NCBI GenBank assembly: GCA_017555465.1
Contig: JAFZGH010000105.1
Coordinates: 1 to 37,969, forward strand
Direction: 5' to 3'
From: Akkermansia sp.
GTDB taxonomy: Bacteria > Verrucomicrobiota > Verrucomicrobiia > Verrucomicrobiales > Akkermansiaceae
Length of the DNA stretch: 37,969 bases
Shown: one piece after another, positions 17,067 through 30,761 of the stretch
How positions within the stretch are numbered: the first letter of the stretch is position 1
Layout: each line of letters opens with the position of its first letter
Notes under the pieces: model-generated
The model's input: only the letters and a program-made list of their open reading frames with translations
Told to the model about the DNA's origin: nothing
Databases searched by the model: none
Translations under genes and position numbers: made by a program

Positions 17067-18149
17067 ATGGCTTTTTATGATGGAAGCGGACGATTTATAA
17101 AAATCGTTCCGAGTGAACAGGAAAAGAAACTGATTAACAGGCTTGTGGGCTATGAGATTCCCGGGTGGTCTGAATTGAACGCAGATTTTGCCAACGTCCT
17201 GCGGAATACGGTTACTGCGTGGATGACCGAGCATGGGGGGAGTCCCAAGAAAATCCCCTTGTTTGTGTCCACTGACCACCATGGCACTCAGCTTGGGAAT
17301 AATGGCCCGATGCTGTTTGAACTGGTAGGTGACATTATCAACTGGGATAATGTGAGCGCCGCAGCCAATCTGGGCGATACTACGGAAGGATTAAAACCCT
17401 ACTATCTGGACATTTTCGCCAAGATTCCCCCGGAGAAACAGATTAATGTGTGGGGCAACCATGAGGCATGGGGAGCATATGATTTCAACTCCACCGAGCC
17501 GTTCGACAACGCAAAAGTTTCTTCTGAGTACAGTGTTTATTATCCTTGCGGCAGAACGCATGGTTATGACAGATTTGGAAACCGGGTCATTAAGGATGCT
17601 GTATTCAAGGTCAAGTATCTGGTGATTTCCTGCTTTGAATATTTGAATCTGGACAATGAGAATGCACACCAGTATAACCGAATCGGCACAGAGGCCATGG
17701 ACTTCATCATTTCCAACATGGAAGAAAACGACGGCTACAAGCTGGTCATTCTGTCCCATGTTCCGCTGTTATATGGCAGCTGGCGCATTACTGGCTGTCC
17801 GTATGACGCAACACTCGCAGGAATTGATTCCGATCCGTTCTTTGCCGCCCGAAAAACTGGTGGTTCTGGCACTATCGTCGATTCTGACGGTGTGGAGCAT
17901 ATCTACGATTTTTCCGGCTGTGCGGAGGATTCTCCCTTTATCTGCGCTATCAACGGTCATGTGCATACGGACGGTCATGCGTATATCAACGACGACGTTC
18001 TGTGCGTGAGCCTTGACAGGTATTACCCCAATGATATCGTGCATTTCCTGCTGATTGATTTGGAGAACAACCAGATTAACGTCTGGAAGGTGGACAATAC
18101 ACCGCAGGCACAGAACTACCAGATTCCGCTGACCAAGCCTGCGGAGTAA
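17067..18149 (+). CDS. Calcineurin-like metallophosphoesterase
   Basis: All five motifs in order: TDHH, LGD, GNHE, SHVP, GHVH; RBS AGGAGGT. Confidence 0.85.
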   Translation: MAFYDGSGRFIKIVPSEQEKKLINRLVGYEIPGWSELNADFANVLRNTVTAWMTEHGGSPKKIPLFVSTDHHGTQLGNNGPMLFELVGDIINWDNVSAAANLGDTTEGLKPYYLDIFAKIPPEKQINVWGNHEAWGAYDFNSTEPFDNAKVSSEYSVYYPCGRTHGYDRFGNRVIKDAVFKVKYLVISCFEYLNLDNENAHQYNRIGTEAMDFIISNMEENDGYKLVILSHVPLLYGSWRITGCPYDATLAGIDSDPFFAARKTGGSGTIVDSDGVEHIYDFSGCAEDSPFICAINGHVHTDGHAYINDDVLCVSLDRYYPNDIVHFLLIDLENNQINVWKVDNTPQAQNYQIPLTKPAE

Positions 18150-18218
18150 GTTCGCATCCACAATCCTATGCTAAAGCCCCGCCCGGGTGGCGGGGCAACA
18201 CCAAAGGAGGGCAACACC

Positions 18219-19148
18219 ATGAAAAACGTAAAAGCTGGACATGCAAAGCCCATCGTGTGCCTGGACGCTGGCCATTATGGCAAATACAACCGCAGCCCGG
18301 TGGTGCCGGCCTATTATGAGAGCGTCATGAACTGGGCGCTGCATAACTACCTGGCCAGAGAGCTGGAGGCCCGCGGCATCCAGGTCAAGAAAACCCGCAC
18401 GACCCAGGCCAAGGACCTGGAGCTGAACGCCCGCGGCAAAGCCTCCGCCGGCTGTGACCTGTTTATCTCCATTCACTCCAATGCCTGCGACACCGAGAGC
18501 GTGGACCGCCCCGTGGCCATTTACCTGGTGGACGACAACTGCGGCGCCATTGACGAGCAGAGCCGCCAGGTGGCCGCGCTGCTGGCTGAGACCGTGCGGG
18601 AGATCATGCAGACCAATGACCCGGCCAAAACCTACAGCAAGCTGGCCAGCGGCGACCGTGACGGCGACGGCAAGAAAAACGACGACTATTACGGCGTGCT
18701 GTACGGCTGCCACCAAGTGGGCACCGCCGGCATTATCCTGGAGCACTCATTCCACACCAACACCCGCGCAGCCAAGTGGCTCATGCAGGACGCAAACCTG
18801 CAGGCCCTGGCAAAGGCAGAGGCTGCCACGATTGCCGCATGGTTTGACCTGGACCACGCCGGCAGCGAAAAGCCCGCAGAGCCCGCGCCAGCGCCTGAGA
18901 AAGCGCCCGTAAAACTGGACCCGGCCAAGAGTTTCCACAAATACAAGGCCGGCGTCTACAAGGTGCAGAGCTCTGACGGCTGCCTGAACCTCCGCGCCGG
19001 TGCTGCTGCCGATAAGCAGCTGATTGAGACCATGGCCAACGGCACAAAGGTGCGCTGCTATGGTTACTATACCGACGCCTGGCTGTATGTGGTGAGCGCA
19101 TCCGGGAAAGCCGGTTTCTGCCATAGCGCATACCTGAAAAAGCAGTAA
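18219..19148 (+). CDS. Endolysin: N-acetylmuramoyl-L-alanine amidase (Amidase_3) with C-terminal SH3-like domain
   Basis: CLDAGH, YES, FISIHSNA, ILEHSFHTN; C-terminal LNLRAG...WLYV...GFCHSAYL; RBS AAGGAGG before ATG 18219. Confidence 0.92.
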   Translation: MKNVKAGHAKPIVCLDAGHYGKYNRSPVVPAYYESVMNWALHNYLARELEARGIQVKKTRTTQAKDLELNARGKASAGCDLFISIHSNACDTESVDRPVAIYLVDDNCGAIDEQSRQVAALLAETVREIMQTNDPAKTYSKLASGDRDGDGKKNDDYYGVLYGCHQVGTAGIILEHSFHTNTRAAKWLMQDANLQALAKAEAATIAAWFDLDHAGSEKPAEPAPAPEKAPVKLDPAKSFHKYKAGVYKVQSSDGCLNLRAGAAADKQLIETMANGTKVRCYGYYTDAWLYVVSASGKAGFCHSAYLKKQ

Positions 19149-19162
19149 AGGAGGAGAGACCA

Positions 19163-19528
19163 ATGGAGCAAGCAATGGCCACATTATCCCCCGGCCAGCT
19201 TTTCCTGGCGTTCTGTGGCGTCCTGCTGGCTGTGGCCGGCTTTGTCGTCACGGTGGGCAACGCCGTGGAGAAAATCGCCAAAGTATGGAAAGCCGCAAAG
19301 GCCCCCAACGTAACCCAGGACAGCCGCCTGGACGAGCTGGAGAAATGGAGGAAAACCGTGGACACAGCCCTGGCCCGTGACCTGGCGCGTTTCGAGGCAC
19401 AGGACGAAAGCGAGCGCGTGACCCAGCGGGCCCTGCTGGCCCTGCTGGACCACGGCATAGACGGCAATAACATCGAACAAATGAAGCGGGCCAAAGAGGT
19501 GCTGCAAAACCACCTCATTGAGCGATAA
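19163..19528 (+). CDS. Single-TM lysis-module membrane protein (holin/antiholin-like)
   Basis: One N-terminal hydrophobic helix plus coiled coil; between endolysin and holin. Confidence 0.6.
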   Translation: MEQAMATLSPGQLFLAFCGVLLAVAGFVVTVGNAVEKIAKVWKAAKAPNVTQDSRLDELEKWRKTVDTALARDLARFEAQDESERVTQRALLALLDHGIDGNNIEQMKRAKEVLQNHLIER

Positions 19529-19548
19529 ACCCAAAGGAGGAAAACATC

Positions 19549-20025
19549 ATGGAGTTTATTCTGGAAATCCTGAACACCTACGGCATGGAGATCGTGGGCG
19601 CCATTTTCACCGCCCTGGCCGGCGTCCTGGGCATGGTAGCCTCCAAGCTGGCCACCAAGTACGTCAATACCAAGATCAAGCGCCAGATCGCCCGCACCGT
19701 CGTGCGCGGCATCGAGCAGGCATACATGACCCTGGACGGCCCCGCAAAGCTGGACAAGGGCCTGAAAGCCCTGGCCGACATGCTGCAGGCGGAGAGCATC
19801 ACCGTCACCGACCTGGAGCTGCGCATGCTGCTGGAGGACGCCCTGGGCGAGTTTAACGACGTTTTCAACTACGAGGTCATGGAGGGCTTTGCCGTCGAGG
19901 ACCTGGACGACGACCAGCTGCGCCAGTTTCTGCAGATGAATGGCTTTGCATACACTGCGGGCATGACCCGCGAGGAAATGCTGGCCGCCCTGGGCGAAGA
20001 ACCCGAGGCCGGTTTTCTGATTTAA
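19549..20025 (+). CDS. Holin (LL-H-like) with acidic C-terminal extension
   Basis: N-terminal TM helix, IARTVVRGIEQ..G..KL..., ELRMLLEDALGEFN pattern. Confidence 0.7.
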   Translation: MEFILEILNTYGMEIVGAIFTALAGVLGMVASKLATKYVNTKIKRQIARTVVRGIEQAYMTLDGPAKLDKGLKALADMLQAESITVTDLELRMLLEDALGEFNDVFNYEVMEGFAVEDLDDDQLRQFLQMNGFAYTAGMTREEMLAALGEEPEAGFLI

Positions 20026-20114
20026 CGCACACAGCAGGCGCAAATATGATCGTTACGGCCACCGGCCGGCGCCAATAGAATCAATAACGCACATAAATGA
20101 TTACATAGCATAAG

Positions 20115-20162
20115 AAAGCCCCGACCATAATGCCAACCCCGGCAAAATGGCCGGGGCTTTTT
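20115..20162. terminator. Terminator ending the lysis module
   Basis: AAAGCCCCGACCAT...ATGGCCGGGGCTTTTT with internal TGCC/GGCA stem. Confidence 0.75.
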
Positions 20163-20175
20163 GTGCGCTTTGCGA

Positions 20176-20193
20176 TATACCACAAACGGTATA
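20176..20193. promoter_or_regulatory. Operator copy 1 (TATACCACAAACGGTATA)
   Basis: Imperfect palindrome, 16/18 identical to the operator core at 20245-20262. Confidence 0.7.
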
Positions 20194-20236
20194 AAACTAC
20201 ACAAAACAAGGCCCGAAACTTTGTACATTCTGCGAA

Positions 20237-20264
20237 TTGTAAATTATACCATAAATGGTATAAT
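20237..20264 (+). promoter_or_regulatory. Sigma-A promoter overlapped by a perfect palindromic operator
   Basis: TTGTAA-16bp-TATAAT with extended TG; ATTATACCAT-AA-ATGGTATAAT inverted repeat (20243-20264) covers the spacer and -10. Confidence 0.85.
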
Positions 20265-20313
20265 AGACCCATACAGAACGACACCCCACCACACAACACC
20301 AGGAGGAAACAAC

Positions 20314-20577
20314 ATGAAAAAGCATTTTTACAAGCCCTGCAAGGTGATCGTAGAACGGTACAGCCGCTGCAAGTATTTCCACCCCGAGGACGGCGAGCGC
20401 ATCACCTACGAAAACGTGGAGGCATTCGAGGTGGTCCACGGCGAGGCAGCTGCCCAGCTGGAGGCCGAAATGGATGGCACCACCCTGGACGACTTCAACG
20501 AATACCTGGTGCTGTATTTCACCAACGGCGAAACCGCAACATTCCGCAACTCCTACGCAGACCTTTTCAAATTCTAA
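20314..20577 (+). CDS. Hypothetical 87-aa protein, first gene of accessory operon (candidate anti-defence)
   Basis: RBS AGGAGG; acidic C-terminal half; no recognised family. Confidence 0.8.
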   Translation: MKKHFYKPCKVIVERYSRCKYFHPEDGERITYENVEAFEVVHGEAAAQLEAEMDGTTLDDFNEYLVLYFTNGETATFRNSYADLFKF

Positions 20578-20578
20578 C

Positions 20579-20626
20579 CACCAGGGCCGGCAACCCCGGC
20601 CCGCCAATCAAAAGGAGCACGACATG
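20579..20626 (+). repeat. Intergenic hairpin+RBS unit, copy 1
   Basis: CACCAGGGCCGGCAACCCCGGCCC-N8-AAAGGAGCAC-N-ACATG. Confidence 0.9.
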
Positions 20627-20896
20627 AAAAAAAGACAATGGTTTATATTCCAGGTTTTCGACGGCGGCCAGGACCTGCTGGACCAGCCTATATGGCACTG
20701 GGAGGTCACCCTCCAGTACCACACAAAGGCGGAGGTATTCAAGACATACAACCGCTACAGAGGCCACCGAAAAGTTAGAGAAGTTTTCACCCTGCGGCAG
20801 TTTGTGGAGGCCGTCGGCATCAAGACCGCCCAGCGAGTGCTGGAGGACAACCGGGGCCGCATCCTGGCCGACAAGGAAAGATATTCCGAACAATAA
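20624..20896 (+). CDS. Hypothetical 90-aa protein
   Basis: RBS AAGGAG within repeat unit; MKKRQWFIFQV... Confidence 0.8.
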   Translation: MKKRQWFIFQVFDGGQDLLDQPIWHWEVTLQYHTKAEVFKTYNRYRGHRKVREVFTLRQFVEAVGIKTAQRVLEDNRGRILADKERYSEQ

Positions 20897-20897
20897 A

Positions 20898-20945
20898 CAC
20901 CAGGGCCGGCAACCCCGGCCCACACATAGAAAGGAGCACAACATG
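20898..20945 (+). repeat. Intergenic hairpin+RBS unit, copy 2
   Basis: 24-nt exact repeat of 20579-20602, plus the same AAAGGAGCAC at the same spacing. Confidence 0.9.
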
Positions 20946-21629
20946 GCAAGTATCAGAAATGCAGCACAGTGGGTCCTGGACGATTGCCGGGACGGCATCG
21001 GCTGGGTAGCAATCTGGAAAGAGGGCCGCAGCTGGGAAAGCGAGCGCATTTACGGCGTAGACTTTGACGCGCCTACCTACACCGCAACGATTGACGACGC
21101 CGACGAGCTGGAGCGGCTGCAGGCTATCCTGGCCATTGACCCCCATGCAATCATTGTAAACAGCTATTACCACAACCTGGGCGATACCGAGTGCATGACC
21201 CGCGACACCCTGGCCGACGCCCTCCGCTGGCAGTACGAACTGCAGAACGCCACCGTGGCCAACTTCCTGGAGAATATTGTGCAGGATGCACAGGAGCCCG
21301 CCGACCATGAGGAGCAGATCGCAGCTGCAGACCTGGGCAACATGCCCAAAAACGACGAGGAGGACGAGGACGAGCGGGTGGCCGCATGGGGCCGCCAGGA
21401 GCGCAGCGTCACCCTGACAAATGACCAGTGGAACCGCCTGGTTTGCTACCTGCATATGAGCACCAAGTACCGAGAGGGAGAACGGGACGCATGGCAGGAA
21501 CTGGCCCAGGAGAAGAACCCGGACGGCACCCCGGTATTTAAGAACGCGGCCAAAAATGCAGCATACTGGCAGGAGGCCATTGACGACCTGGCCGCCATGC
21601 TGCCCAAGCTGGACGGGCTGGGGGCGTAA
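20943..21629 (+). CDS. Hypothetical acidic two-domain protein (228 aa)
   Basis: RBS within repeat; D/E-rich linker (NDEEDEDE) separates two regions. Confidence 0.8.
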   Translation: MASIRNAAQWVLDDCRDGIGWVAIWKEGRSWESERIYGVDFDAPTYTATIDDADELERLQAILAIDPHAIIVNSYYHNLGDTECMTRDTLADALRWQYELQNATVANFLENIVQDAQEPADHEEQIAAADLGNMPKNDEEDEDERVAAWGRQERSVTLTNDQWNRLVCYLHMSTKYREGERDAWQELAQEKNPDGTPVFKNAAKNAAYWQEAIDDLAAMLPKLDGLGA

Positions 21630-21631
21630 CT

Positions 21632-22024
21632 ATGGAAAAGAACCACAGACAGCGATTGATCGAGGAGGGGCTGTACGAGCCCCTCACACCCAACGATATT
21701 GCAGAGCGCAAAGAGCTGCTGGAGCGCCGGGCCCGTGGCGAGAAAATCCAGGACCCGCCCATATACTGCGTGTACCGCGCTGACGACCCCTGGACCCATA
21801 TCGACACCAGCCTGGGCAAGAAATGCCAGGACGCGGAACTGATCGCGGACCACCTGCGGGGCTATGAGGCGCAAAGCCTGTGCAGCCGGCTTTGCATTTA
21901 CGACAAGCAGCAGCCGCCCAGGACCCGTCCCTGGCTGCCTCCGCTGGATATGTACCGCATTTCAAAAATGGACGACTGGGACGCCTGGGAGGCCCAGCAC
22001 GCCCAGCTCAGAATGGAGGTGTAA
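21632..22024 (+). CDS. Hypothetical 130-aa protein
   Basis: Tightly packed in operon. Confidence 0.7.
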   Translation: MEKNHRQRLIEEGLYEPLTPNDIAERKELLERRARGEKIQDPPIYCVYRADDPWTHIDTSLGKKCQDAELIADHLRGYEAQSLCSRLCIYDKQQPPRTRPWLPPLDMYRISKMDDWDAWEAQHAQLRMEV

Positions 22025-22028
22025 CAGT

Positions 22029-22172
22029 ATGGACGTAGAGGAGATCATGGAGCAGGTTTGCGACCGCTGCCATTATCCGTATATCATTGACGACCAGGAG
22101 CAGCTGGACGAACGCTGCGAGGCGTGCCCCATTGAGGCCATGCTGAAACAGCTGGCAAATAAGGAGGAGTAA
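22029..22172 (+). CDS. Hypothetical 47-aa acidic Cys-containing protein
   Basis: RBS GGAGGT; MDVEEIMEQVCDRCHYP...RCEACP. Confidence 0.7.
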   Translation: MDVEEIMEQVCDRCHYPYIIDDQEQLDERCEACPIEAMLKQLANKEE

Positions 22173-22175
22173 ACC

Positions 22176-22358
22176 ATGGGAGAGAAACTGAAACAGGCCC
22201 GGCAGCGTGCCGGCATGACCCAGGCGCAGCTGGCTGAGGCCATAGGCTGCAAACAGAAAGACGTGAGCCGCTGGGAGGCCGGCCTGATCGAGCCCGGCGT
22301 GCTGACCGTCAAGAAAATGGCCCAGGCCCTGGGCTGCAGCATGGACGACCTGGTGTAA
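22176..22358 (+). CDS. Stand-alone XRE/HTH_3 regulator (Aca-like position)
   Basis: LKQARQRAGMTQAQLAEAIG...VSRWEAG..EP; last gene of the operon. Confidence 0.9.
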   Translation: MGEKLKQARQRAGMTQAQLAEAIGCKQKDVSRWEAGLIEPGVLTVKKMAQALGCSMDDLV

Positions 22359-22440
22359 TGCTAAGAAAAAAATATGCAAAGGAATTTTACTTATTTTCTG
22401 CCGGCTGTGCTGTAATTAAAGCAAAGTTAAAATAATACGC

Positions 22441-22472
22441 AAAAAGGGCACCCGGGCGGCGGGTGCCTTTTA
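22441..22472. terminator. Bidirectional terminator
   Basis: AAAAAGGGCACCCG-GGCGG-CGGGTGCCTTTTA. Confidence 0.8.
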
Positions 22473-22535
22473 TCATATTTCCGCCAGGCTGTCAACGTGG
22501 CCAGAAAGCCCGCAGCGGCGCCGTTTGTGGCGGTA

Positions 22536-22564
22536 TTGACAATCAGCGGAAAGTGTGGTATATA
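22536..22564 (+). promoter_or_regulatory. Sigma-A-like promoter
   Basis: TTGACA-17bp (ending TGTGG)-TATATA. Confidence 0.6.
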
Positions 22565-22569
22565 GACGG

Positions 22570-22651
22570 TGGTGCAATTGTTCAGCCCGTCGGCCGTGGG
22601 AACCCACGCCAGAAAACCAAAGAGGCCACCCCAGGCGGGCGGCCTCTTTTT
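22570..22651 (+). ncRNA. Putative ~80-nt small RNA or attenuated leader
   Basis: Bounded by the promoter at 22536-22564 and terminator AAAGAGGCCACCC-CAGGC-GGGCGGCCTCTTTTT (22619-22651); no RBS-led ORF inside. Confidence 0.45.
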
Positions 22652-22700
22652 AACTTGTTACGCCCTGGAGGTAAAAACAATGGTAAACTATCAGTATACG

Positions 22701-22733
22701 AAAAAGAGGGGCGCCGGCGTGGGCGCTCCCTCT
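22701..22733 (-). terminator. Terminator downstream of integrase (minus strand)
   Basis: Minus strand AGAGGGAGCGCC-CACGCC-GGCGCCCCTCT-TTTT. Confidence 0.65.
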
Positions 22734-22798
22734 ATCACATTTTTGTCTATCTGTCAACCAGGCCCAGCAAAGCCAGGCGTGGCGGGCGTTTCACGATA

Positions 22799-22858
22799 TG
22801 CAGCGCATGAGCGTGCAGACGAACCTGCACACCCATGGTCTGCATAAAATGCGCGGCA
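22799..22858. other. Putative attP of the serine integrase
   Basis: 60-bp imperfect inverted repeat next to the integrase stop: TGCAGCGCAT/ATGCGCGGCA outer arms and TGCAGAC/GTCTGCA inner arms, centred near 22828-22829. Confidence 0.65.
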
Positions 22859-22860
22859 GT

Positions 22861-24438
22861 TTACAACCGCAGCGAGATATGCAGCTCAAAGGGGCTGACC
22901 TCACCACCGCGCAGACGTTTCCTGTTTTCTCTATCACTGGGCACGCTGGAAAATTCGACGCGCTCCACGATTGCCTTTACCACTCTGTTTTTCTCCTCTA
23001 TGGTGGCGGCATCATCCCGCAGAATATCAATAGCAGCCTTTAAGGCCACGACCCGCTCTGCGTAGTCCACGGACTGCGGCAGGGCGCTTTTTGCTTTGTA
23101 GATCGCTGCCTGGCATTCCTCCATTTTTTCGCGCAGCGCTTTGTTGCGGCGCTCAAAAACGTCCTGCGGGTAATTTGGATTAGTTTCAAGCAGATCATAC
23201 TGCCGCTCCTCCTGGGCCCTGTATTCCTCCATTTGTTTCTCCAGTTTGACCAGGAGGCGCTGCTGTATCTTCCTGGCGTCGCCGTCGCCGTTTGTGACCT
23301 TTAGCTCCAGCGCCGGCAGCTCTGCCTCCTCCAGGGAAACCACCAGGGCGTCCACCAGGGCGCCGGCCTTTACGGATTTATAGCACGGCGGCCTCTGTTT
23401 GCATGTGTATCGGTCCTCTGCATGTTTGTACGGGTGCAGGGCCATGACCTGCCCGCAGCCTTTGCAAAACAGCACGCTGGCCAGCGGATTCTTTAAGTGG
23501 GTAAATTGATTTATGCGCGGATTTTGCGCCACGCGCTCCTGGGCAGCCTCCCACAGGGCCCGGTCTACGATTGCCGTGTGTTTACCCTCTGCTATGATAA
23601 CGTCCTCCACAGGCTGCGCCAGGCGCCTCTTGACAATTTTGCCGTTTTCAAGTACCTGGGTAAATTTCTTTTGATTAAATGCCACATAGCCGGCATAGTG
23701 CGGATTGCGCAGCATCACGCGCACGCTGTCCTTTTTCCATTTGTCAATGCGGGCCGGTTTTATGCCCAGCTCATTGAGGCGGCAAGCTATCTGGTAAGGC
23801 GTGGCCCCGTCGTTCACATACATGTCATACGCGAGCTGCACGGCCGGCGCCTGGTCCTCGTTTATTTCCAGCGTGTGGTCCTTGCCTATTTTTATTTTGT
23901 TATAACCATATGGCGGGTGGTTACCGATAAAGCAGCCGCGCTTTACAGCCGCAATCCGACCCCGGAAAAGTATTTCCTTTGTGTATTCCAGGAATTCGCT
24001 GGAGCGCAGCAATTCGTCTTTGAAGAATTTGCGCTCCATTTTGTTTTCCAGGTCATAGGTCATATACGGCGTGGCGACGACGCTATGGGAAAAGCGGAAA
24101 CTGTCAATTATTTTGGAGCAGTCGGCCAGATCACCGCGGGAGAGCCGGCTGGGCTCCATGACAATGACGCCGGCCACGGCCGGGTCCTCTATGCGGGCCA
24201 GCACTTTCTTTATTTCCTCCCGGGCGTCGATACTTTCACCGCTGACAATTTCCCGGTATATATTTTCCTCTGGAATTGTACAGCCCAGCTCCCGCTCTGC
24301 CCACTCCTGCAGCTGCGTCTCATGTTTGGCCAGGACCTCCTCCACCGTTTCGTTTGGGTCATCCTGCCGTGATTTACGCAAGTAAAGCAACCATATTTTG
24401 TATCGTGATTCATTGCCCAGCTTTTCACTGAGTGTCAT
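22861..24438 (-). CDS. int: Large serine recombinase (integrase)
   Basis: YLRKS catalytic motif, SRLSRG, PPYGY recombinase domain, LFCKGCG..C..C zinc ribbon, coiled coil. Confidence 0.95.
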   Translation of the reverse strand: MTLSEKLGNESRYKIWLLYLRKSRQDDPNETVEEVLAKHETQLQEWAERELGCTIPEENIYREIVSGESIDAREEIKKVLARIEDPAVAGVIVMEPSRLSRGDLADCSKIIDSFRFSHSVVATPYMTYDLENKMERKFFKDELLRSSEFLEYTKEILFRGRIAAVKRGCFIGNHPPYGYNKIKIGKDHTLEINEDQAPAVQLAYDMYVNDGATPYQIACRLNELGIKPARIDKWKKDSVRVMLRNPHYAGYVAFNQKKFTQVLENGKIVKRRLAQPVEDVIIAEGKHTAIVDRALWEAAQERVAQNPRINQFTHLKNPLASVLFCKGCGQVMALHPYKHAEDRYTCKQRPPCYKSVKAGALVDALVVSLEEAELPALELKVTNGDGDARKIQQRLLVKLEKQMEEYRAQEERQYDLLETNPNYPQDVFERRNKALREKMEECQAAIYKAKSALPQSVDYAERVVALKAAIDILRDDAATIEEKNRVVKAIVERVEFSSVPSDRENRKRLRGGEVSPFELHISLRL

Positions 24439-24561
24439 AAAAAATCATCCCCTTGTTTTCGTCTTTTTTCGCTGTGCTGCTGTGTTACATTAAAGTGGCA
24501 ACATTTACATGTGGCGCCAGATAATTTCCTGACTGTATAATGTTTTCAGAAAGTTAAAAAA

Positions 24562-24577
24562 CAGAACACACGTTCTG
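24562..24577. promoter_or_regulatory. LexA/DinR (Cheo) SOS box
   Basis: CAGAAC-ACAC-GTTCTG matches Bacillota GAAC-N4-GTTC; lies 20 nt downstream of TATAAT (24536-24541). Confidence 0.75.
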
Positions 24578-24611
24578 GCCGCCCCGGAATTTATGAAGTG
24601 AGGTCATTGCC

Positions 24612-24722
24612 ATGGAAGAAACACTAAAAACCAAGCTGCACCAATACATAGAAAGGCTGGACCTGAGCCAGCTACATATTGCAATCGGATTTTTCAAAAC
24701 TCTTTTCGGCTTTGACGACTGA
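24612..24722 (+). CDS. 36-aa putative SOS-induced antirepressor (not in ORF track)
   Basis: RBS GAGGT then ATG; MEETLKTKLHQYIERLDLSQLHIAIGFFKTLFGFDD; convergent on and overlapping the cI 3' end. Confidence 0.6.
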   Translation: MEETLKTKLHQYIERLDLSQLHIAIGFFKTLFGFDD

Positions 24723-25100
24723 CGCGCCCGCGTCAGTCTTTTTTTGTTTTGTAGACATTGACGCAATGACCAGCCGCACCGCGTAACGGTCCGCCTCACT
24801 CAGCTGCATGTATTCCCGGGCCATTTCCAGGGCGTCCTGGTCCATGATCACCTGGGCCGCCAGGGCGCCCATGTCCTGCAGCTCCTCCGCCGGCTTTTCG
24901 TCCCATCCCATCAAATGCCCAGGCGTTACGCCAAGCGCATCGGCAAAGGCGGCGATTTTCTTCTGTGGCAGGTCCCTGATACCCAGCTCTATTTTGTTTA
25001 TGGCCGACTTTGTTTTATAGCCGACACGGCTTGCCAGCTCCTCCTGGGTAATTCCTGCCCGTTTCCTGGCCGCTGCTATGTTCTTTCCTACGTTTGCCAT
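24672..25100 (-). CDS. CI-like XRE repressor without S24 peptidase domain
   Basis: RBS GGAGGTG, ATG 25100; IAAARKRAGITQEELASRVGY..KSAINKIE.G HTH; short helical C-terminus; divergent from cro. Confidence 0.9.
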   Translation of the reverse strand: MANVGKNIAAARKRAGITQEELASRVGYKTKSAINKIELGIRDLPQKKIAAFADALGVTPGHLMGWDEKPAEELQDMGALAAQVIMDQDALEMAREYMQLSEADRYAVRLVIASMSTKQKKTDAGASVVKAEKSFEKSDCNM

Positions 25101-25119
25101 ATTTTCACCTCCTGGCTGT

Positions 25120-25148
25120 ATCATAGCACTGGGTAGCCGTTGTGTCAA
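25120..25148 (-). promoter_or_regulatory. Lysogenic promoter for cI
   Basis: Minus strand TTGACA-17bp-TATGAT. Confidence 0.85.
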
Positions 25149-25176
25149 TTTTTTACGCATTTTTCAGAAAAAAAGG

Positions 25177-25205
25177 TTGACAAAGTGGCCACGCGATATT
25201 ATATT
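25177..25205 (+). promoter_or_regulatory. Early lytic promoter for cro operon
   Basis: TTGACA-17bp-TATATT. Confidence 0.85.
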
Positions 25206-25217
25206 GAAATAGCAAGC

Positions 25218-25236
25218 GGTAGCCAAAACGGCTACC
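25218..25236. promoter_or_regulatory. Switch operator GGTAGCC-AAAAC-GGCTACC
   Basis: Perfect 7-bp arms; degenerate copies at 25133-25149 and 25176-25192 overlap the two -35 boxes. Confidence 0.85.
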
Positions 25237-25266
25237 AAAGAAAAACCCAAGAAAGGAGGCATTTAC

Positions 25267-25485
25267 ATGACCAACACCAGCCTGCTGGAGCTGCGCATCC
25301 AGAAATCTGGCCTCAAAAAAAGCTATATTGCAAAAGAATTAGGCATTACGCTGAGAACGCTGGCCAATAAGATTGCAAACCGCTGCGAATTTAAGGCAAG
25401 CGAAATCGACAAGCTGTGCAAACTGCTGGGCATTACTGACCCCGCAGAAAAGGAGGCTATTTTTTTTGCTACAAAAGTAGCCTAA
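25267..25485 (+). CDS. Cro-like HTH regulator
   Basis: SGLKKSYIAKELGIT..TL.NKI....EFKASEI; first gene of the divergent lytic operon. Confidence 0.88.
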   Translation: MTNTSLLELRIQKSGLKKSYIAKELGITLRTLANKIANRCEFKASEIDKLCKLLGITDPAEKEAIFFATKVA

Positions 25486-25493
25486 ACGGCTAC
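25477..25493. promoter_or_regulatory. Distal operator GTAGCC-TAAAC-GGCTAC at cro stop
   Basis: 16/17 identical to the 25219-25235 operator core. Confidence 0.8.
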
Positions 25494-25506
25494 CGAGGAG
25501 GGAACC

Positions 25507-25713
25507 ATGGAGAACTGGACACCGGCACCAGACCGGCCCGGCTACCGCCGCAAGATCATCCAGAGAGGCCCGGCCACCATCATCATTGACCGGCCAGAGC
25601 TGGACGACGCTGCCGCAGCCAAGGCCCAGGAAAAGACCCGCGCGGAGCTGGAGGGCGCCATGCGGAGCTATCACAGACGAACGGCCCAACGTGCGGCCGT
25701 GCGACCGGCATAA
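25507..25713 (+). CDS. Hypothetical protein
   Basis: RBS GAGGAGG; 68 aa. Confidence 0.7.
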   Translation: MENWTPAPDRPGYRRKIIQRGPATIIIDRPELDDAAAAKAQEKTRAELEGAMRSYHRRTAQRAAVRPA

Positions 25714-25758
25714 AAGTCGGCCGCAAAATACCAGGACATTCAGAAAGGCGGAAACGGT

Positions 25759-25971
25759 ATGACATACCAATACCAGGGAACTGTAACCCGTTATCAATTC
25801 CAGACCTACAGCGCACCCAAACCCCGGAAGAAAAACAGAAAGCTGGCCCGGCTGCTGACCACCAGAAAGCTGCTACATTTTATCGGTTTTCTGTCTTTTT
25901 GGGCCACCACGCTGGCCATTACATATTTGTGCATGCTGGTCACCCTGGCCGCGTTTGTCTGGCTGTCCTGA
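25759..25971 (+). CDS. Hypothetical membrane protein
   Basis: Basic segment followed by a long hydrophobic C-terminus. Confidence 0.6.
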   Translation: MTYQYQGTVTRYQFQTYSAPKPRKKNRKLARLLTTRKLLHFIGFLSFWATTLAITYLCMLVTLAAFVWLS

Positions 25972-25989
25972 ACCAAAGGAGGCGACACT

Positions 25990-26163
25990 GTGCGAGATAT
26001 CAACGTGGGCGCATTAATTCGCCTTAAAGGGGCCCGGCCCCATTTGACTGCCCAGCAATACAGGACCCTGCGGGGCCAGGTGCTGGCAGGCGACCCGGAC
26101 GGCGCCATGCGAGGGCTGCGCAAGCTGCTCCTGCTGCAGGGCTCCAACGCCGTGAAAAAGTAA
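25990..26163 (+). CDS. Hypothetical 57-aa protein (not in ORF track)
   Basis: RBS AAGGAGG, GTG start; LTAQQYRTLRGQVLAGDPDGAMRGL. Confidence 0.7.
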   Translation: MRDINVGALIRLKGARPHLTAQQYRTLRGQVLAGDPDGAMRGLRKLLLLQGSNAVKK

Positions 26164-26169
26164 AATCAA

Positions 26170-26218
26170 TGTTTCACGGGCAACGTTAAACACAAAAAAC
26201 AATGTTTCACGGAAAACA
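26170..26218. repeat. Two parS-like 16-mers
   Basis: TGTTTCACGGGCAACG (26170-26185) and TGTTTCACGGAAAACA (26203-26218) versus parS TGTTNCACGTGAAACA. Confidence 0.5.
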
Positions 26219-26239
26219 ACTGACAAAGGAGCGAAACCA

Positions 26240-26428
26240 ATGCCAGAAAATACGACAACCCAACATGTGACCATCCCGGTGGATGAATACGCATACCTGC
26301 AAAAGCTGGAGGTGCTGCTGGATATTCTCCTGGGTGACGGTGATTACAGCACGTTTCGGAACGTGGCCGCTGTGCGGCAGAATATCCGGGAAATGAAACA
26401 TGCCCGAAAGGTGGCGGGTGAGGAATGA
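26240..26428 (+). CDS. Hypothetical protein
   Basis: RBS AAGGAG; VTIPVDEY motif. Confidence 0.7.
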   Translation: MPENTTTQHVTIPVDEYAYLQKLEVLLDILLGDGDYSTFRNVAAVRQNIREMKHARKVAGEE

Positions 26429-26880
26429 GCCAGCAGCTGCTAACCATTGCCGGCGACATATCAGAAAAGCGTCTCATTGTCAAGGGACGCCTGCCCGGCC
26501 TGAATGAGTACACCAAAGCCTGCAGGACCAACCCCCATACAGGCAACGAAATGAAACGCCAGGCCCAGGACATGGTCATGTGGTACATACTGCAGCAAAT
26601 GCGTGGCCACCGTTTCACAAAGCCGGTTTTTATCCTGTTTTCATTCTATGAGCAGGACCGCCGGCGAGATCGTGACAACATAAGCAGCTTTGCCCGCAAG
26701 GTAATCCAGGACGCCCTGGTGAAATGCGGCAACCTGCAGGACGACGGCTGGGACTATGTGACCGGCTACATGGACCGCTTTTATGTGGACAAAGAAAACC
26801 CGCGCATTGTCGTGGAATTTATCGAGCAGGAGGTGGTGGCGAAATGCAACAAGCAACCCGCCAGGAAATCAAAGAAATAA
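26425..26880 (+). CDS. rusA: RusA-family Holliday junction resolvase
   Basis: LPGLNEY, RRRDRDNI, IQDALVKCG.LQDD, NPRIVVE. Confidence 0.88.
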   Translation: MSQQLLTIAGDISEKRLIVKGRLPGLNEYTKACRTNPHTGNEMKRQAQDMVMWYILQQMRGHRFTKPVFILFSFYEQDRRRDRDNISSFARKVIQDALVKCGNLQDDGWDYVTGYMDRFYVDKENPRIVVEFIEQEVVAKCNKQPARKSKK

Positions 26881-27182
26881 AGGCGACCGTGCGGCAGGTG
26901 CTGCATGATCACCCGCCCACCAGGGCCGACGACAACGCCCTGTTTTATCACGTTTGCAAACGGCACGCGCAGCAGATCGGTGTGGACCTCCACACGCTGC
27001 ACTTTTCCACCGTATTCCTGGGCAACCCTCTGAAATTCCCGAAATACGAGAGCGTCGTGCGACTGCGCCGCATGGAGCAGCGGGCCAACCCTGACCTGCT
27101 GGACCCGGTGGCGGCTGCCAACCGTGCCAAAAAGGAGCGGGACATGGTGGAGCTGGCCAGAAATGGAGGGCTGCTGCAGTGA
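26844..27182 (+). CDS. Hypothetical protein
   Basis: RBS AGGAGGT; TRADDNAL...ESVVRLRR. Confidence 0.65.
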   Translation: MQQATRQEIKEIKATVRQVLHDHPPTRADDNALFYHVCKRHAQQIGVDLHTLHFSTVFLGNPLKFPKYESVVRLRRMEQRANPDLLDPVAAANRAKKERDMVELARNGGLLQ

Positions 27183-27952
27183 TCAACCCGCAGAACTTTT
27201 ACACCGTCCAGGGCTGGATGCTGGCAGACCTGGGCCTAAAGGGCAACGCCCTGGCCGCCTATGCTATTATCTATGGCTTTTCTCAGGACGGGAAAAGCGA
27301 GTTTACCGGCTCTGCCAACTACCTGGCCGAATGGATGGGCTGCAGCCGCAGCACAGTCATGGAGACCCTGAAAAAGCTGGTAGAAAAGGGGCTGCTGGTA
27401 AAGCGCAATATAATCCAGGACGGCGTCCTGTTTTGCGCATACAAGGCAAACCCGCGACCCTGTCCGAAAACTGGACAGGGGGTGTCTGAAAACCAGACCG
27501 GGACCTGTCCGAAAACTGGACAGGGGGTGTCCGAAAATCAGACAGGGGGTAGTCCGAAACTCGGACACAATAATATAGCTGATAATATAGCGATAAATAA
27601 TATTAAATATATTGTCGAGTATCTGAACCGAAAAGCCGGCACCAAATACAAGCCCACCAGCAAGGAAACGCAAAAGCACATAAACGCCCGCCTGGCGGAG
27701 GGCTACACGGTGGCCGACTTTGTGCAGGTGATCGACAAAAAGTGCGCAGCCTGGAAAGGCGACCCCAAAATGGAGGAGTACCTGCGGCCCTCCACATTGT
27801 TCGGCACGAAATTCGAGAGCTACCTGAACGCCCCTGCAGCTGCTCAGCAGCCCCGGCCCGCCGGCCGTGGCTATGGTGCACCGGCTGCCAACGTGGGCCC
27901 GAACGGCATTGCAATCGACCCGAGCAAAAACGACCTGGACGGCATTCTGTAG
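27179..27952 (+). CDS. Replication initiator (N-terminal HTH plus conserved phage C-terminal domain)
   Basis: YAIIYGFSQDG, YLAEW.G.SRSTV...LKKLVEKG; C-terminal YLRPSTLFGTKFESYLN; internal iterons. Confidence 0.88.
   Translation: MINPQNFYTVQGWMLADLGLKGNALAAYAIIYGFSQDGKSEFTGSANYLAEWMGCSRSTVMETLKKLVEKGLLVKRNIIQDGVLFCAYKANPRPCPKTGQGVSENQTGTCPKTGQGVSENQTGGSPKLGHNNIADNIAINNIKYIVEYLNRKAGTKYKPTSKETQKHINARLAEGYTVADFVQVIDKKCAAWKGDPKMEEYLRPSTLFGTKFESYLNAPAAAQQPRPAGRGYGAPAANVGPNGIAIDPSKNDLDGIL
27461..27613. repeat. Replication origin: five 17-bp palindromic iterons plus AT-rich tract
   Basis: TGTCCGAAAACTGGACA-like units at 27461, 27483, 27506, 27528 and 27551 (22-23 bp period), then AT-rich 27568-27613. 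Confidence 0.85.
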
Positions 27953-27965
27953 AGGAGGAGACCCC

Positions 27966-28256
27966 ATGAAACGGAAAAAGTATATCAAGCTGCTAATGAG
28001 CGCCGGCATGGCAAGGAACGACGCACAGGAATGCGCGGCCCTGTCCAGAAACTCCTGCCGGCCGTACTATCTGACCGCCGGCGACCTGCTGAACCACCAC
28101 CGCGAAAAATTCAAAGTGCGCGGCCTGGTGGGCCTGCAGCCCGTGCGCCTAACCATCATTCACGGATTCAAAACCCCGGTGTACAACCTGCTGATAGATG
28201 GATTTTACAACCGGGCGGCCTGGGCCGTTATGCGCGAAAGAGGTGGCAAGGCATGA
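27966..28256 (+). CDS. Hypothetical protein
   Basis: RBS GAGGAGG; MKRKKYIKLLMSAG.ARN. Confidence 0.7.
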   Translation: MKRKKYIKLLMSAGMARNDAQECAALSRNSCRPYYLTAGDLLNHHREKFKVRGLVGLQPVRLTIIHGFKTPVYNLLIDGFYNRAAWAVMRERGGKA

Positions 28257-28663
28257 CCCGTAAAAAGTTTGTAAAGCAAATCATGGCCCTGGGCTATCAG
28301 AGAAACGCCGCGGAGGCAATGGCCATGTATGCACGCTGGACCGGCTGCACATATGAGGACTACCTGCGCGACGAAATCAACCGACAAAATTTTGCCCTGG
28401 CCCTGACGAACATAAAGACCATGCTGGTGGAATGTATGAGACCCGTGTGCGAGGCAGCAACGGCAACCATTGAGTGGCTGCGCGAGACCTTTGCGGCCGT
28501 CGACCTGAGCAATGTAACCACCATGCTGGACTGGGCGAAGGAAAACGCCCCGCAGATCGTTGAGCGGCACGCGGACGACGCCCTGGACGCCCTGACGTAT
28601 TCGTGCGGCATCGACCTGGCACACGGCCCGGACATGGCCGCGGGAGGTGGCGGCAATGACTGA
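28253..28663 (+). CDS. Hypothetical protein
   Basis: ATGA coupling; MTRKKFVKQIMALGYQRN. Confidence 0.7.
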   Translation: MTRKKFVKQIMALGYQRNAAEAMAMYARWTGCTYEDYLRDEINRQNFALALTNIKTMLVECMRPVCEAATATIEWLRETFAAVDLSNVTTMLDWAKENAPQIVERHADDALDALTYSCGIDLAHGPDMAAGGGGND

Positions 28664-29588
28664 CCAGGAGCTGCTGGCCGCCCAGCGCCGGCTGCAGAAA
28701 CAGCACGGCGTAACACCGCCGGCCCCAGCGTCAAACGCTGCCGCGGTGGCGGAGGGTATGCTGGCCATGGTGGCGGCAAAGGCTGAGGCCGGCGCCGAAA
28801 CGGAAACCGAGTACCTGGACGAGGACACCGGCCTGCTGCGCTGCCGCATCTGTGGCGGAAAGCGCCAGACGGTAATAACCCCGCCCTTTGAGGGCGCCAA
28901 GCCCCGCACGGTCCGCTGCTGGTGCAACTGCCCGACGGCCCAGGACCTGGCCAAGGAAAAGGAACGCCAGATCAAAATGGAAACGGCCCGCCTGGTATGT
29001 TTCCAGGGCGTCGAGGAAATGCGCAGCTGCACCTTTGACAAGGACGACGGCAAAGGAGACCAGCAGCTGATCACCGCCGCCCGGCTCTATGCCGAAAATT
29101 TCAAGGACCACCTGCGGGACGGCATGGGCCTGCTGTATTACGGCCCGGTGGGCACCGGCAAGACATTCCTGGCCGCCTGCATTGCAAACGCTGTCCTGGC
29201 CCAGGGCTACCGGGTCCGCATGACCAACTTTGCAAGGGTGGCGGACGAAATCTGGACGGCAGACGACAAGGCGGGATATATTGCGGACCTGTGCCGTTAT
29301 GACCTGCTCATGCTGGACGACCTGGGAGCGGAGCGCAAAAGCGAGTACATGCAGGAAATGGTGTACAAGATCGTAAACGCCCGCTATGTGGCCGGCGCCC
29401 CGGTGATCGTAACCACCAACCTGACCACGGACGAGCTGACCAAAACGGCCGATATTGGCTACGCGAGAACATACGACCGACTGCTGGAGAAGTGCCTGCT
29501 CATCAAGGTGGACGGCCGCAGCCGCCGCAGAGCCGGCGCCGCTGACGCCTGGGGCAATATGCGCCGGCAGCTGGGAATGGAGGTGTAA
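28656..29588 (+). CDS. DnaC/IstB-like helicase loader ATPase
   Basis: CRICG..CWCNC zinc motif, Walker A GPVGTGKT, Walker B LLMLDDLG, IVTTNL. Confidence 0.9.
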   Translation: MTDQELLAAQRRLQKQHGVTPPAPASNAAAVAEGMLAMVAAKAEAGAETETEYLDEDTGLLRCRICGGKRQTVITPPFEGAKPRTVRCWCNCPTAQDLAKEKERQIKMETARLVCFQGVEEMRSCTFDKDDGKGDQQLITAARLYAENFKDHLRDGMGLLYYGPVGTGKTFLAACIANAVLAQGYRVRMTNFARVADEIWTADDKAGYIADLCRYDLLMLDDLGAERKSEYMQEMVYKIVNARYVAGAPVIVTTNLTTDELTKTADIGYARTYDRLLEKCLLIKVDGRSRRRAGAADAWGNMRRQLGMEV

Positions 29589-29590
29589 AC

Positions 29591-29983
29591 GTGACAGAAA
29601 AGGAAATACAGAAAATTGTGCGTGATACCGTGACGGCCACGGTGCTGCAGCTGAAAGCGGCGGGCATGCTGCAGCCTGCCACCGCAAAAACCGCCGTACA
29701 GAAAACCGAGGAGCTGCTGAGGCAGTACCCGCAGCTGAGAAACAGCAGCGAGCCCTATGCGCTGCGCGTGGTGGCGGAAATCGACGCCCTGCTGGCCGCT
29801 GCGGAAAATGAGCCCTATGTGGACGTTATCCGCCTGTATTACTTTGGCGGCCTGACAAACGAGGGCTGCGCAAATACCCTCTGCTGTGACGAAAGGACCT
29901 GCCGGCGCTACCGCAAAAAGCTGGTGCAACAGTTTTCTGTGCGCCTGGCATCTGATGAATTTATCCGCGAACTGCTGGAATAA
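29591..29983 (+). CDS. RinA/ArpU-like (sigma region-4) transcriptional regulator
   Basis: VIRLYYFGGLTNEGCANTLCCDERTCRRYRKKLV C-terminal HTH. Confidence 0.7.
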   Translation: MTEKEIQKIVRDTVTATVLQLKAAGMLQPATAKTAVQKTEELLRQYPQLRNSSEPYALRVVAEIDALLAAAENEPYVDVIRLYYFGGLTNEGCANTLCCDERTCRRYRKKLVQQFSVRLASDEFIRELLE

Positions 29984-29995
29984 GGAGGCAAACAT

Positions 29996-30271
29996 ATGAA
30001 CTTTAAGTACAACCCCTGGCTGAGCCTGGTGGCCATGGTGCTGCTGGCCCTCATTCTGGTGCTGGCCTGCACCGGCTGCCACGTCCAGGAAAATGCCACC
30101 GCCCTGGAACCCCAGGCAGAAACCGAGACCGAGACCTGGCCCCGCTTTACCCGTGAGTATGCGGGCGGGTACTGCATCATTCTCACGGACACCCAGACCG
30201 GCGTGCAGTACCTGTATTATGGCAACGGCACCGGTGGCGGCCTGTGCGTGCTGGAACCCGGGGAGGGCTGA
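29996..30271 (+). CDS. Secreted/lipoprotein-like protein (DUF6440-like)
   Basis: Hydrophobic signal ending LACTGC; ILTDTQTGVQYL..GGGL. Confidence 0.65.
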   Translation: MNFKYNPWLSLVAMVLLALILVLACTGCHVQENATALEPQAETETETWPRFTREYAGGYCIILTDTQTGVQYLYYGNGTGGGLCVLEPGEG

Positions 30272-30273
30272 GC

Positions 30274-30759
30274 ATGGAAAGATTGACGAAAAGAACGCCG
30301 GCCGGCGTGGGCGTGCTGGTGGAGTGTGGAACAAAGCCGTGCTGTGCTGGCTGCATCGGCCCCTGCGTCCCCCAGGACGAGGCAAACACCCGCCTGGCAG
30401 CCTATGAGGACACCGGCCTGAGCCCCGCAGAAATCACTGCCATGGCGGGCAAGCTGCGCCAGATCGACGAGGAAAAAGCACGGGAGGCCCGTGTGGCTGC
30501 CATGGTAGAGCTGGCAACGCATGCCATAGGAATGAACAACAAAAGGACATACAAGCGCCACGGCCGAACCTGGTATAAACCATATCGCAATGTTTATTGC
30601 GCCGGCTCCCAGGGAGACCCGGTGTGGGACGAAATGGTAAAAGAGGGCTATGCAAAGGCAAGCCAAGGGCTGCAAAGTGTGTACTACTTTATGACCCGCG
30701 CGGGCCTGGACTGGCTGGGCCAGCAAACGGGCGTAAATATTCACGACGAGGAGGGCTAA
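30274..30759 (+). CDS. Hypothetical two-domain protein
   Basis: MERLT...RLAAYEDTGLSP N-terminal module plus C-terminal KPYRN..WDEMV..G module. Confidence 0.7.
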   Translation: MERLTKRTPAGVGVLVECGTKPCCAGCIGPCVPQDEANTRLAAYEDTGLSPAEITAMAGKLRQIDEEKAREARVAAMVELATHAIGMNNKRTYKRHGRTWYKPYRNVYCAGSQGDPVWDEMVKEGYAKASQGLQSVYYFMTRAGLDWLGQQTGVNIHDEEG

Positions 30760-30761
30760 CC

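What the first reader, a model, noticed from the sequence alone, without database searches (positions are those of the whole stretch)
20176..22472. Self-contained acr-aca-like operon between lysis genes and attP: candidate new anti-CRISPR/anti-defence proteins
Seen: a transcription unit insulated by terminators on both sides (20115-20162 and 22441-22472). It has a near-consensus promoter whose -10 lies inside a perfect 10-bp inverted repeat, a second operator copy 69 bp upstream, five small unknown genes (87, 90, 228, 130 and 47 aa, several D/E-rich), and a stand-alone 60-aa HTH as the last gene. Known: acr loci have a strong promoter with inverted-repeat operators repressed by a downstream Aca HTH protein, and many Acrs are small and acidic. 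Inference: these five proteins are expressed immediately after injection to counter host defence. I recognise none as a known Acr.
Basis: partly seen in the sequence, partly recalled or inferred. Interest (0 to 1): 0.8.

Follow-up and report, generated by a model that had tools for sequence, protein, structure and literature searches.

The report
Self-repressing swappable-gene cassette in gut phage
Between its lysis genes and its integration site, a gut phage carries five mostly unknown, interchangeable small genes followed by a repressor gene that likely shuts them off after an early burst; the set likely helps the phage counter host defences, but none of the genes matches a known anti-CRISPR.

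Summary
The anatomy is real: two terminators, a promoter overlapped by a palindrome, a second operator 69 bp upstream, five small genes, a 60-aa HTH, and attP at 22797-22846. Relatives support autoregulation: in 26 of 29 related operons the operator bases change in step with three residues of the HTH recognition helix (3 mixed). The anti-CRISPR claim is unsupported: no cargo protein here or in relatives hit an Acr family or structure. The best functional clue points to anti-restriction or early establishment: g3 begins with LPD15, 39% identical to the N-terminal domain of an ArdA/ArdC-N polyvalent protein of a clostridial conjugative element. Against a pure anti-defence reading, the same HTH family at the same site often controls short hydrophobic peptides. 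Verdict: an acr-aca-like autoregulated accessory cassette of probable Oscillospiraceae phages; anti-defence of some kind about 55%, a true Acr among the five about 25%. A useful screening list, not a demonstrated new system.

The parts
20115..20162 (+). Intrinsic terminator after the holin; likely insulates the cassette from late (lysis) transcription
   Evidence: (z -5.4); a similar hairpin-U-run lies at this place in related operons
20176..20193 (.). Upstream operator copy (TATACC-N6-GGTATA)
   Evidence: second copy also in L006a/b, L126, L127, L128, L140
20237..20264 (+). sigma-A-type promoter (-35 TTGTAA, 16 nt, TG-extended -10 TATAAT)
   Evidence: conserved in relatives
20243..20264 (.). 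Main operator: perfect 10-bp inverted repeat covering the spacer and -10
   Evidence: covaries with the HTH recognition helix
20314..20577 (+). g1, 87 aa, pI 4.9; small beta-rich SH3/Sm-like model, no clear fold match; family of 28 clusters
20575..20626 (+). Cassette junction 1: 7-bp GC hairpin (20584-20602) + RBS of g2
20624..20896 (+). g2, 90 aa, basic; 6 relatives among 50%-cluster representatives; no family
20894..20945 (+). Cassette junction 2: identical hairpin (20903-20921) + RBS of g3
20943..21629 (+). g3, 228 aa: LPD15 (res 2-107) + acidic linker + helical domain (phrog_38056, res 151-211); the commonest cargo
21632..22024 (+). g4, 130 aa, pI 5.6; 7 other clusters; no family
22029..22172 (+). 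g5, 47 aa, acidic, two Cys pairs (possible metal binding, inferred); homolog in the same position in L123
22176..22358 (+). Stand-alone Xre/434-type HTH, predicted autorepressor (recognition triplet Q27-K28-D29)
22441..22471 (+). Intrinsic terminator, A/T runs on both sides; faces the convergent integrase
   Evidence: (z -4.4)
22797..22846 (.). attP: 22-nt imperfect inverted arms next to the serine integrase stop codon
   Evidence: (I2), 109, 125: relatives L059 and L063 switch to host gene sequence at the centre of this motif

Best explanation
This is a self-contained accessory operon of a temperate gut phage whose last gene, a small HTH, likely represses the operon's own promoter, and whose swapped small cargo proteins likely act early after infection against host defences (restriction or CRISPR) rather than having a structural or replication role. 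Steps: (1) shown: promoter, two operators, terminators, gene order, position next to attP. (2) strongly inferred: an HTH dimer binds the operator over the -10 and the upstream copy, giving a burst when DNA enters a repressor-free cell and a low steady level in the lysogen. (3) shown in relatives: promoter and HTH stay, cargo is exchanged, often behind the same hairpin-RBS junction; inferred: the junction is the recombination anchor and/or an RNA control element. (4) inferred, weakest: cargo function is counter-defence; g3's LPD15 points more to anti-restriction/establishment than to anti-CRISPR.
For: Helix-operator code in 29 operons: QKD with ATACC..GGTAT in 20 of 21; QRD with TATGCC..GGCATA in 3 of 4; VKD with GTTACC..GGTAAT in 2 of 2; QVH (L140) with both operators changed to TATATC..GATATA; mixed cases L111, L123, L143. 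HTHs about 40% identical with QKD keep the window's operator, while HTHs 68-83% identical with a changed triplet do not, so ancestry alone does not explain it (tree). Cargo swap: L006 has the same operators and a 92% identical HTH but shares only g3; L113, L123, L126, L128, L059, L063, L066, L125, L127 carry other cargo between holin and HTH; L006, L126, L128 have two operons in tandem. Hairpin: perfect 7-bp stem in 9 of 9 junctions, 20-28 nt before the ATG, with both-side changes in L006b, L128a, L132. Cargo is acidic: 20 of 31 with pI under 6 against 7 of 30 short early/middle ORFs of the window, Fisher p 0.002, families not independent. LPD15 of g3 is 39% identical over 110 aa (E 3e-19) to the N-terminus of an LPD15-ArdA-ArdC-N-peptidase-YodL protein beside a relaxase; g3's second domain is a solo gene in the repeat-spaced small-gene array of FP_Toutatis relatives, two genes from a weak ArdC-N match (E 9e-4, under cut-off). 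Probable host genus has Cas8c in 30 of 121 and Cas9 in 9 of 121 genomes over cut-off.
Against: No cargo matches any Acr or other characterised anti-defence family. 58 of 76 more distant viral loci (many near-identical), and L040/L056/L057 with an 83% identical HTH, carry short hydrophobic peptides instead, so the HTH is a general cassette repressor. LPD15 itself has no known activity (PMC5512222, passages); fusion to ArdA is guilt by association. g1 and g3-domain homologs in other phages sit in ordinary early regions without this HTH. The code rule was drawn from the same data it was scored on and rests on about 3-5 independent changes; in L219 (triplet PKD) my script found no palindrome.
Confidence: 0.55

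Rival explanations
1. It is a bona fide acr-aca locus: at least one of g1-g5 inhibits type I-C or II CRISPR-Cas of the host and the HTH is a new Aca family (a narrower form of the best explanation).
For: Architecture matches acr-aca operons: inverted repeat in the core promoter plus a second copy (PMC9410906, passages), hairpins between genes (PMC13551039, Results parts 1-2). Validated AcrIB2 lies just after lysis genes (PMC10732046, passages) and AcrIIA22 in hypervariable clostridial prophage ends (PMC8545432, passages). I-C and Cas9 occur in the probable host genus. LPD15-HTH fusions exist (P0066, P0070, P0071), like Acr-Aca fusions.
Against: 0 of 5 window cargo and 0 of 33 related proteins hit an Acr family; no PDB sequence hit to an Acr; Acr structures appear only at E 0.9-2.5. 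The usual definition of Aca needs a known acr in the operon (PMC9765179, passages).
Confidence: 0.25
2. It is a lysogenic-conversion (moron) cassette: autoregulated to a steady level in the prophage and serving superinfection exclusion, prophage-borne defence or toxin-antitoxin-like maintenance.
For: Own promoter and terminators at the prophage end; same HTH and operator head hydrophobic peptide pairs in 58 of 76 distant loci and in L040/L056/L057, with an antisense promoter-like site in L040; RHH-type small genes upstream of the HTH in L219.
Against: The window's five proteins are soluble-looking, mostly acidic, and have no PADLOC match (0 of 5); LPD15 belongs to early-acting polyvalent proteins.
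Confidence: 0.25
3. The cargo are general early host-manipulation or nearly neutral phage genes that collect at a recombination-prone, well-expressed slot, with no defence link.
For: Homologs of g1 and of both g3 domains lie in cro-side early operons of CS266P4, Arawn and Fontainebleau; one frequent cargo family (phrog_4068) has relatives in 155 phage records of unrelated hosts.
Against: Dedicated autorepressor with co-evolving operators, tandem duplication of whole operons and conserved g3 two-domain architecture (56 clusters covering 98% or more of the query) suggest selection for tight transient expression.
Confidence: 0.15

Closest known systems
acr-aca operons (Aca1, Aca2, Aca10 etc.; PMC9410906, PMC13551039, PMC9765179)
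   Same: Small genes followed by a stand-alone HTH; inverted repeat in the core promoter plus a second upstream copy; interchangeable cargo; hairpins in front of internal genes; many Aca-regulated genes are of unknown function.
   Different: No known acr in any operon examined; HTH is closest in PDB to P22 c2/434-type repressors (E 5e-8), no Aca chain listed at E up to 1e-6; the same HTH also controls hydrophobic-peptide cassettes; operator specificity has diversified within the family.
Hypervariable acr-bearing prophage ends of gut Clostridia (AcrIIA22 loci, PMC8545432; AcrIB2 locus, PMC10732046)
   Same: Small swapped ORFs next to the host junction or just after the lysis genes in clostridial temperate phages.
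   Different: No homology shown to those Acrs; here the constant element is a promoter/operator/HTH frame, whereas the AcrIIA22 paper has 0 occurrences of 'HTH' in its main text.
Polyvalent proteins of Firmicutes conjugative elements (LPD15-ArdA-ArdC-N-MPTase-YodL; PMC5512222)
   Same: g3's N-terminal domain is LPD15, 39% identical to such a protein.
   Different: g3 lacks ArdA, ArdC-N and peptidase; LPD15 is fused to a different helical domain and is made from a phage operon.
Phage morons / lysogenic conversion cassettes (recalled)
   Same: Own promoter and terminator, inserted between lysis genes and att.
   Different: Dedicated autorepressor and repeated hairpin-RBS junctions.

Membership tests
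acr-aca operon | Short same-strand genes with an HTH under 150 aa in one operon | tested here: met
   gaps of 2-46 nt; g3 (228 aa) exceeds AcaFinder's 200-aa limit
acr-aca operon | Inverted repeat within the core promoter, often a second copy | tested here: met
acr-aca operon | HTH binds the repeat and represses | not testable with these tools
   Only indirect: covariation in 26 of 29 operons
acr-aca operon | At least one known acr (or homolog) in the operon or in operons of the same HTH | tested here: inconclusive
   No hit for 5 + 33 proteins in Pfam, NCBIfam, PHROGs or PDB; no dedicated Acr database was available and no positive control for Acr models in these libraries was run
acr-aca operon | HTH belongs to a described Aca family (Aca1-14) | tested here: inconclusive
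   PDB profile search lists 5 sequences, none an Aca; Aca HMMs and the papers' supplements were not searched
anti-CRISPR protein | Inhibits CRISPR-Cas interference | not testable with these tools
   Needs assay; I-C and Cas9 present in the probable host genus
LPD15 (PF18828) | Profile match over cut-off | tested here: met
   g3 res 2-107, 77.8 bits against cut-off 27
Polyvalent protein / ArdA anti-restriction | ArdA, ArdC-N or MPTase domain in the same polypeptide | tested here: not met
   g3 has only LPD15 over cut-off in Pfam; the ICE homolog has them
Known anti-phage defence system (PADLOC) | Match to a defence protein model | tested here: inconclusive
   0 of 5 window cargo; 1 of 23 related proteins with two weak coiled-coil hits, E 0.006-0.01; library dates from 2023

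The most novel reading that the evidence does not exclude
The HTH defines a new Aca-like family of gut Clostridia phages with a readable three-residue recognition code, and it marks a cassette system (promoter/operator frame plus hairpin-RBS junctions) that shuffles some 30 uncharacterised proteins, among them new inhibitors of type I-C or II CRISPR and of restriction systems, with LPD15 as a new counter-defence effector domain.
Probability: 0.3. Interest if true: 0.75.

Novelty: new member of a known kind. Interest (0 to 1): 0.5.

Why it matters
Counter-defence genes of phages of Oscillospiraceae and other gut Clostridia are poorly known. This HTH and operator give a bait that returns a compact list of about 30 small unknown proteins to screen, and a solo/fused LPD15 whose activity has been open since 2017. 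The natural helix-operator variants (QKD, QRD, VKD, QVH) make a directly testable set of repressor-operator pairs. If the cargo prove to be morons or neutral, the locus is ordinary.

Tried and rejected
Family scans of cargo for Acr, anti-R-M or defence models: nothing. PDB sequence searches with alignments of g3, g1, g4, g2: nothing meaningful (g4's hits are designed TIM barrels with no passing stretch); g5 was not searched in PDB. Folds: g3 model (pLDDT 81) best Z 4.7, g1 model (pLDDT 93) best Z 4.7, no Foldseek match at E 0.001 in PDB or, for g1, BFVD; g3's two domains were not folded apart, so LPD15 is barely tested; g2, g4, g5 were not folded. ESM Atlas: no usable hit for LPD15, only unnamed viral clusters at 0.81-0.83 for the C-domain. 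Exact-palindrome and hairpin scans of IMG/VR gave 4 and 1 loci with no similarity to the window's genes. The double-operator scan gave 21 loci; apart from the two on L006's contig they were not analysed. g1 scan of IMG/VR: 0 of 52 candidates. HTH in 400 genomes of G000's family: 0; in 201 genomes of the probable host genus: 2. No CRISPR spacer match was seen in 251 genomes of that genus, but the search scored only 2 candidates per genome and covered 18000-37969 only. No RNA holder listed. (pair counts on the hairpin) used a structure string off by one column and is not used; its slide -1 row gives 96% paired; stems were checked directly. g5 similarity to a Cys-rich gene of phage Arawn, seen by eye, was not confirmed. 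Rfam: nothing over a gathering score. Earlier findings: none. No complex prediction was run, as no specific partner is claimed.
Full report
Setting. The window is the whole of contig C300 of assembly G000 and reads as a complete temperate siphophage: terminase, portal, capsid, tail, amidase, LLH holin, then the operon, a leftward serine integrase and divergent cI/cro-like genes. G000 is probably not the host: nothing else in it matches the phage, it gave no Spo0A or WhiB match and no match to the host gene that relatives integrate into. The nearest named relatives of the HTH are in Firmicutes bacterium CAG:110 (77%); placing CAG:110 in Faecousia/Oscillospiraceae is recalled. The three runs that hold the stretch fully are animal gut metagenomes of one study and may be its source.

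Observation. attP was checked, not assumed: 22797-22846 is an imperfect inverted repeat beside the integrase stop; similar intact sites occur in L006, L062 and L125, while L059 and L063 keep the left arm and then run into a host gene whose intact form is in the CAG:110 genome (the label M32 carboxypeptidase is recalled from its motif). After integration the operon therefore lies at one end of the prophage. New: a 52-nt repeat (7-bp GC hairpin plus RBS) precedes g2 and g3; these are its only two copies in the window, 0.00 expected.

Relatives. An alignment of five HTHs was used as bait. Metagenomes: 97 relatives, best 80 kept; about 60 of the 80 are one chromosomal remnant, mostly with an early stop, and were set aside. 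IMG/VR: 108 relatives, best 80 kept. In most phage-type loci the order is holin (or another late gene), terminator, promoter with palindrome, variable small genes, HTH. L006 has the same two operators and a 92% identical HTH but shares only g3, and carries a second operon of the same build right behind; L126 and L128 also have tandem operons, and in L111, L123 and L124 further genes follow the HTH. In run X4, of another study, a g1 homolog sits behind a hairpin junction instead of the promoter, and in X1 a different sequence precedes the junction at 20578 (loose ends). The hairpin keeps a perfect 7-bp stem in 9 of 9 junctions collected, with variable loops and both-side changes in three. It has no U-run on the sense strand, so it is not a sense terminator. 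Whether it is a recombination anchor, an mRNA stabiliser or an HTH-bound RNA motif (as predicted between genes of Aca1/Aca2 operons, PMC13551039, abstract and Results parts 1-2 of 3 read) is open.

Does the HTH own the palindrome? For 29 operons with a readable promoter I compared the three residues before the I/V-S-R-W-E motif with the operator (25 found by script, four read by eye). QKD: ATACC..GGTAT in 20 of 21 (L143 mixed). QRD: TATGCC..GGCATA in 3 of 4 (L123 mixed). VKD: GTTACC..GGTAAT in 2 of 2. SKD (L111): one half changed. QVH (L140): both operators changed to TATATC..GATATA in an otherwise window-like promoter. Left out: L055, L060, L124, L132 (promoter not on the contig), near-duplicates, the chromosomal remnant, loci whose HTH is part of a 158-162 aa protein, and L219 (PKD; no palindrome found). 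On the tree of 26 of these HTHs the deep split (100/100) has QKD with the same operator on both sides, while changed triplets and changed operators occur among the window's close relatives. Collapsed to nine lineages, 9 of 9 agree and 1 of 3780 permutations does as well; that figure is optimistic because the rule came from the same data and L111 was counted as concordant. About 3-5 independent changes underlie it. This is strong indirect evidence for autorepression; binding itself is untested.

What do the cargo do? None of the five window proteins, nor 33 proteins from related operons, hit an anti-CRISPR family in Pfam, NCBIfam or PHROGs; no dedicated Acr database was on hand and no positive control was run. 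Structure models of g1 and g3 found no clear match. g1, g2 and g4 belong to small unannotated families (28, 6 and 8 hits). g3 is the informative one: LPD15 plus a separate helical domain, each also found alone or fused to other domains, including an HTH. The single plasmid-collection hit is an 1108-aa LPD15-ArdA-ArdC-N-metallopeptidase-YodL protein near a relaxase, 39% identical to g3 over 110 residues. PMC5512222 (passages read) lists LPD15 among domains of unknown, possibly enzymatic function in polyvalent proteins that act early in invasion, and ties ArdA and ArdC-N to counter-restriction. The C-domain occurs solo in the repeat-spaced small-gene array of FP_Toutatis and relatives near a sub-threshold ArdC-N match. 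Cargo are more acidic than the phage's other short early/middle ORFs (20 of 31 against 7 of 30). The probable host genus carries Cas8c (30 of 121) and Cas9 (9 of 121), so CRISPR pressure exists, but no spacer link was found (a weak search).

Evidence against. The same HTH family, with the same operator in the distant clade, heads short hydrophobic peptides in 58 of 76 distant viral loci and in L040, L056 and L057. The HTH is thus a general accessory-cassette repressor and cannot by itself mark acr genes; PMC9765179 (passages) makes the same point about HTHs in general. Homologs of g1 and of g3's domains also sit in ordinary early operons of cultured phages, which fits early expression but not a specific defence role.

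Mechanism, committed. On entry the cell has no HTH, host RNA polymerase fires the strong promoter and the cargo are made in a burst (inferred); the HTH accumulates and covers the -10 (strongly inferred); the upstream terminator keeps lysis transcription out and the downstream one shields the convergent integrase (inferred from position); related phages exchange cargo inside this fixed frame (shown by comparison). The cargo most likely blunt host restriction or CRISPR (0.55 for counter-defence of any kind; 0.25 for a true Acr among the five), with a lysogenic-conversion role (0.25) and a defence-unrelated role (0.15) as rivals.

Novelty. The architecture is known from acr-aca operons (PMC9410906, passages; PMC13551039) and from hypervariable clostridial prophage ends (PMC8545432 and PMC10732046, passages). 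It works like an acr-aca operon; membership is not shown, because no acr was found. I found no paper on this HTH family or locus in searches, which cover open-access PMC and bioRxiv only; supplements were not read. Rated a new member of a known kind, interest 0.5: the value lies in the bait, the candidate list and the helix-operator code.

Noticed in passing
window 22536-22652 (+): A second consensus-like promoter (TTGACA at 22536) followed by a 13-bp hairpin with a U-run at 22619-22652: a possible small RNA of about 85 nt between the operon and attP. Its start is conserved in L055; Rfam gave nothing over a gathering score.
   Followed up: partly
window 22680-22847 (+): 55-codon ORF with a strong RBS that runs through attP and would be changed on integration; may be spurious.
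   Followed up: no
L040 4716-5001; L154 3698-3990 and 57 similar loci: Short hydrophobic peptide genes (a pair in L040) in front of the same HTH family after the lysis genes, with an antisense promoter-like site in L040; resembles type I toxin-antitoxin or exclusion modules (resemblance recalled, untested).
   Followed up: partly
L059 4350-4560; L066, L111, L125, L140 same position: Leader with a long-range inverted repeat enclosing a 39-40 codon ORF and an antisense promoter-like site; possible structured RNA.
   Followed up: no
L051 5001-5180 and about 60 metagenome loci: A chromosomal remnant of this HTH, mostly with an early stop codon, fixed at one locus in CAG:110-like gut bacteria.
   Followed up: no
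window 20943-21270 (g3 LPD15): Several MPN/JAB-domain structures recur as weak matches to LPD15 (Z 2.6-4.3, rmsd 4-5 A); below any trust level and the metal-binding motif is not evident.
   Followed up: partly
L016 330-5860 (Faecalibacterium phage FP_Toutatis): Array of about 13 unknown genes separated by 44-78 nt repeats, holding g3's C-domain and a weak ArdC-N match; a larger candidate counter-defence array.
   Followed up: partly
P0066, P0070, P0071: 199-aa LPD15-HTH_3 fusions, possibly self-regulating versions of the cargo.
   Followed up: no
window 36068-37321 (+): N6/N4 DNA methylase gene, a second possible anti-restriction function of this phage.
   Followed up: no
window 24717-24738 and 7563-7588: Two other perfect 10-bp inverted repeats, one inside the 3' end of the cI-like gene.
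   Followed up: no
G000: The phage contig is probably mis-binned: the assembly lacks Spo0A and the attB gene match.
   Followed up: partly
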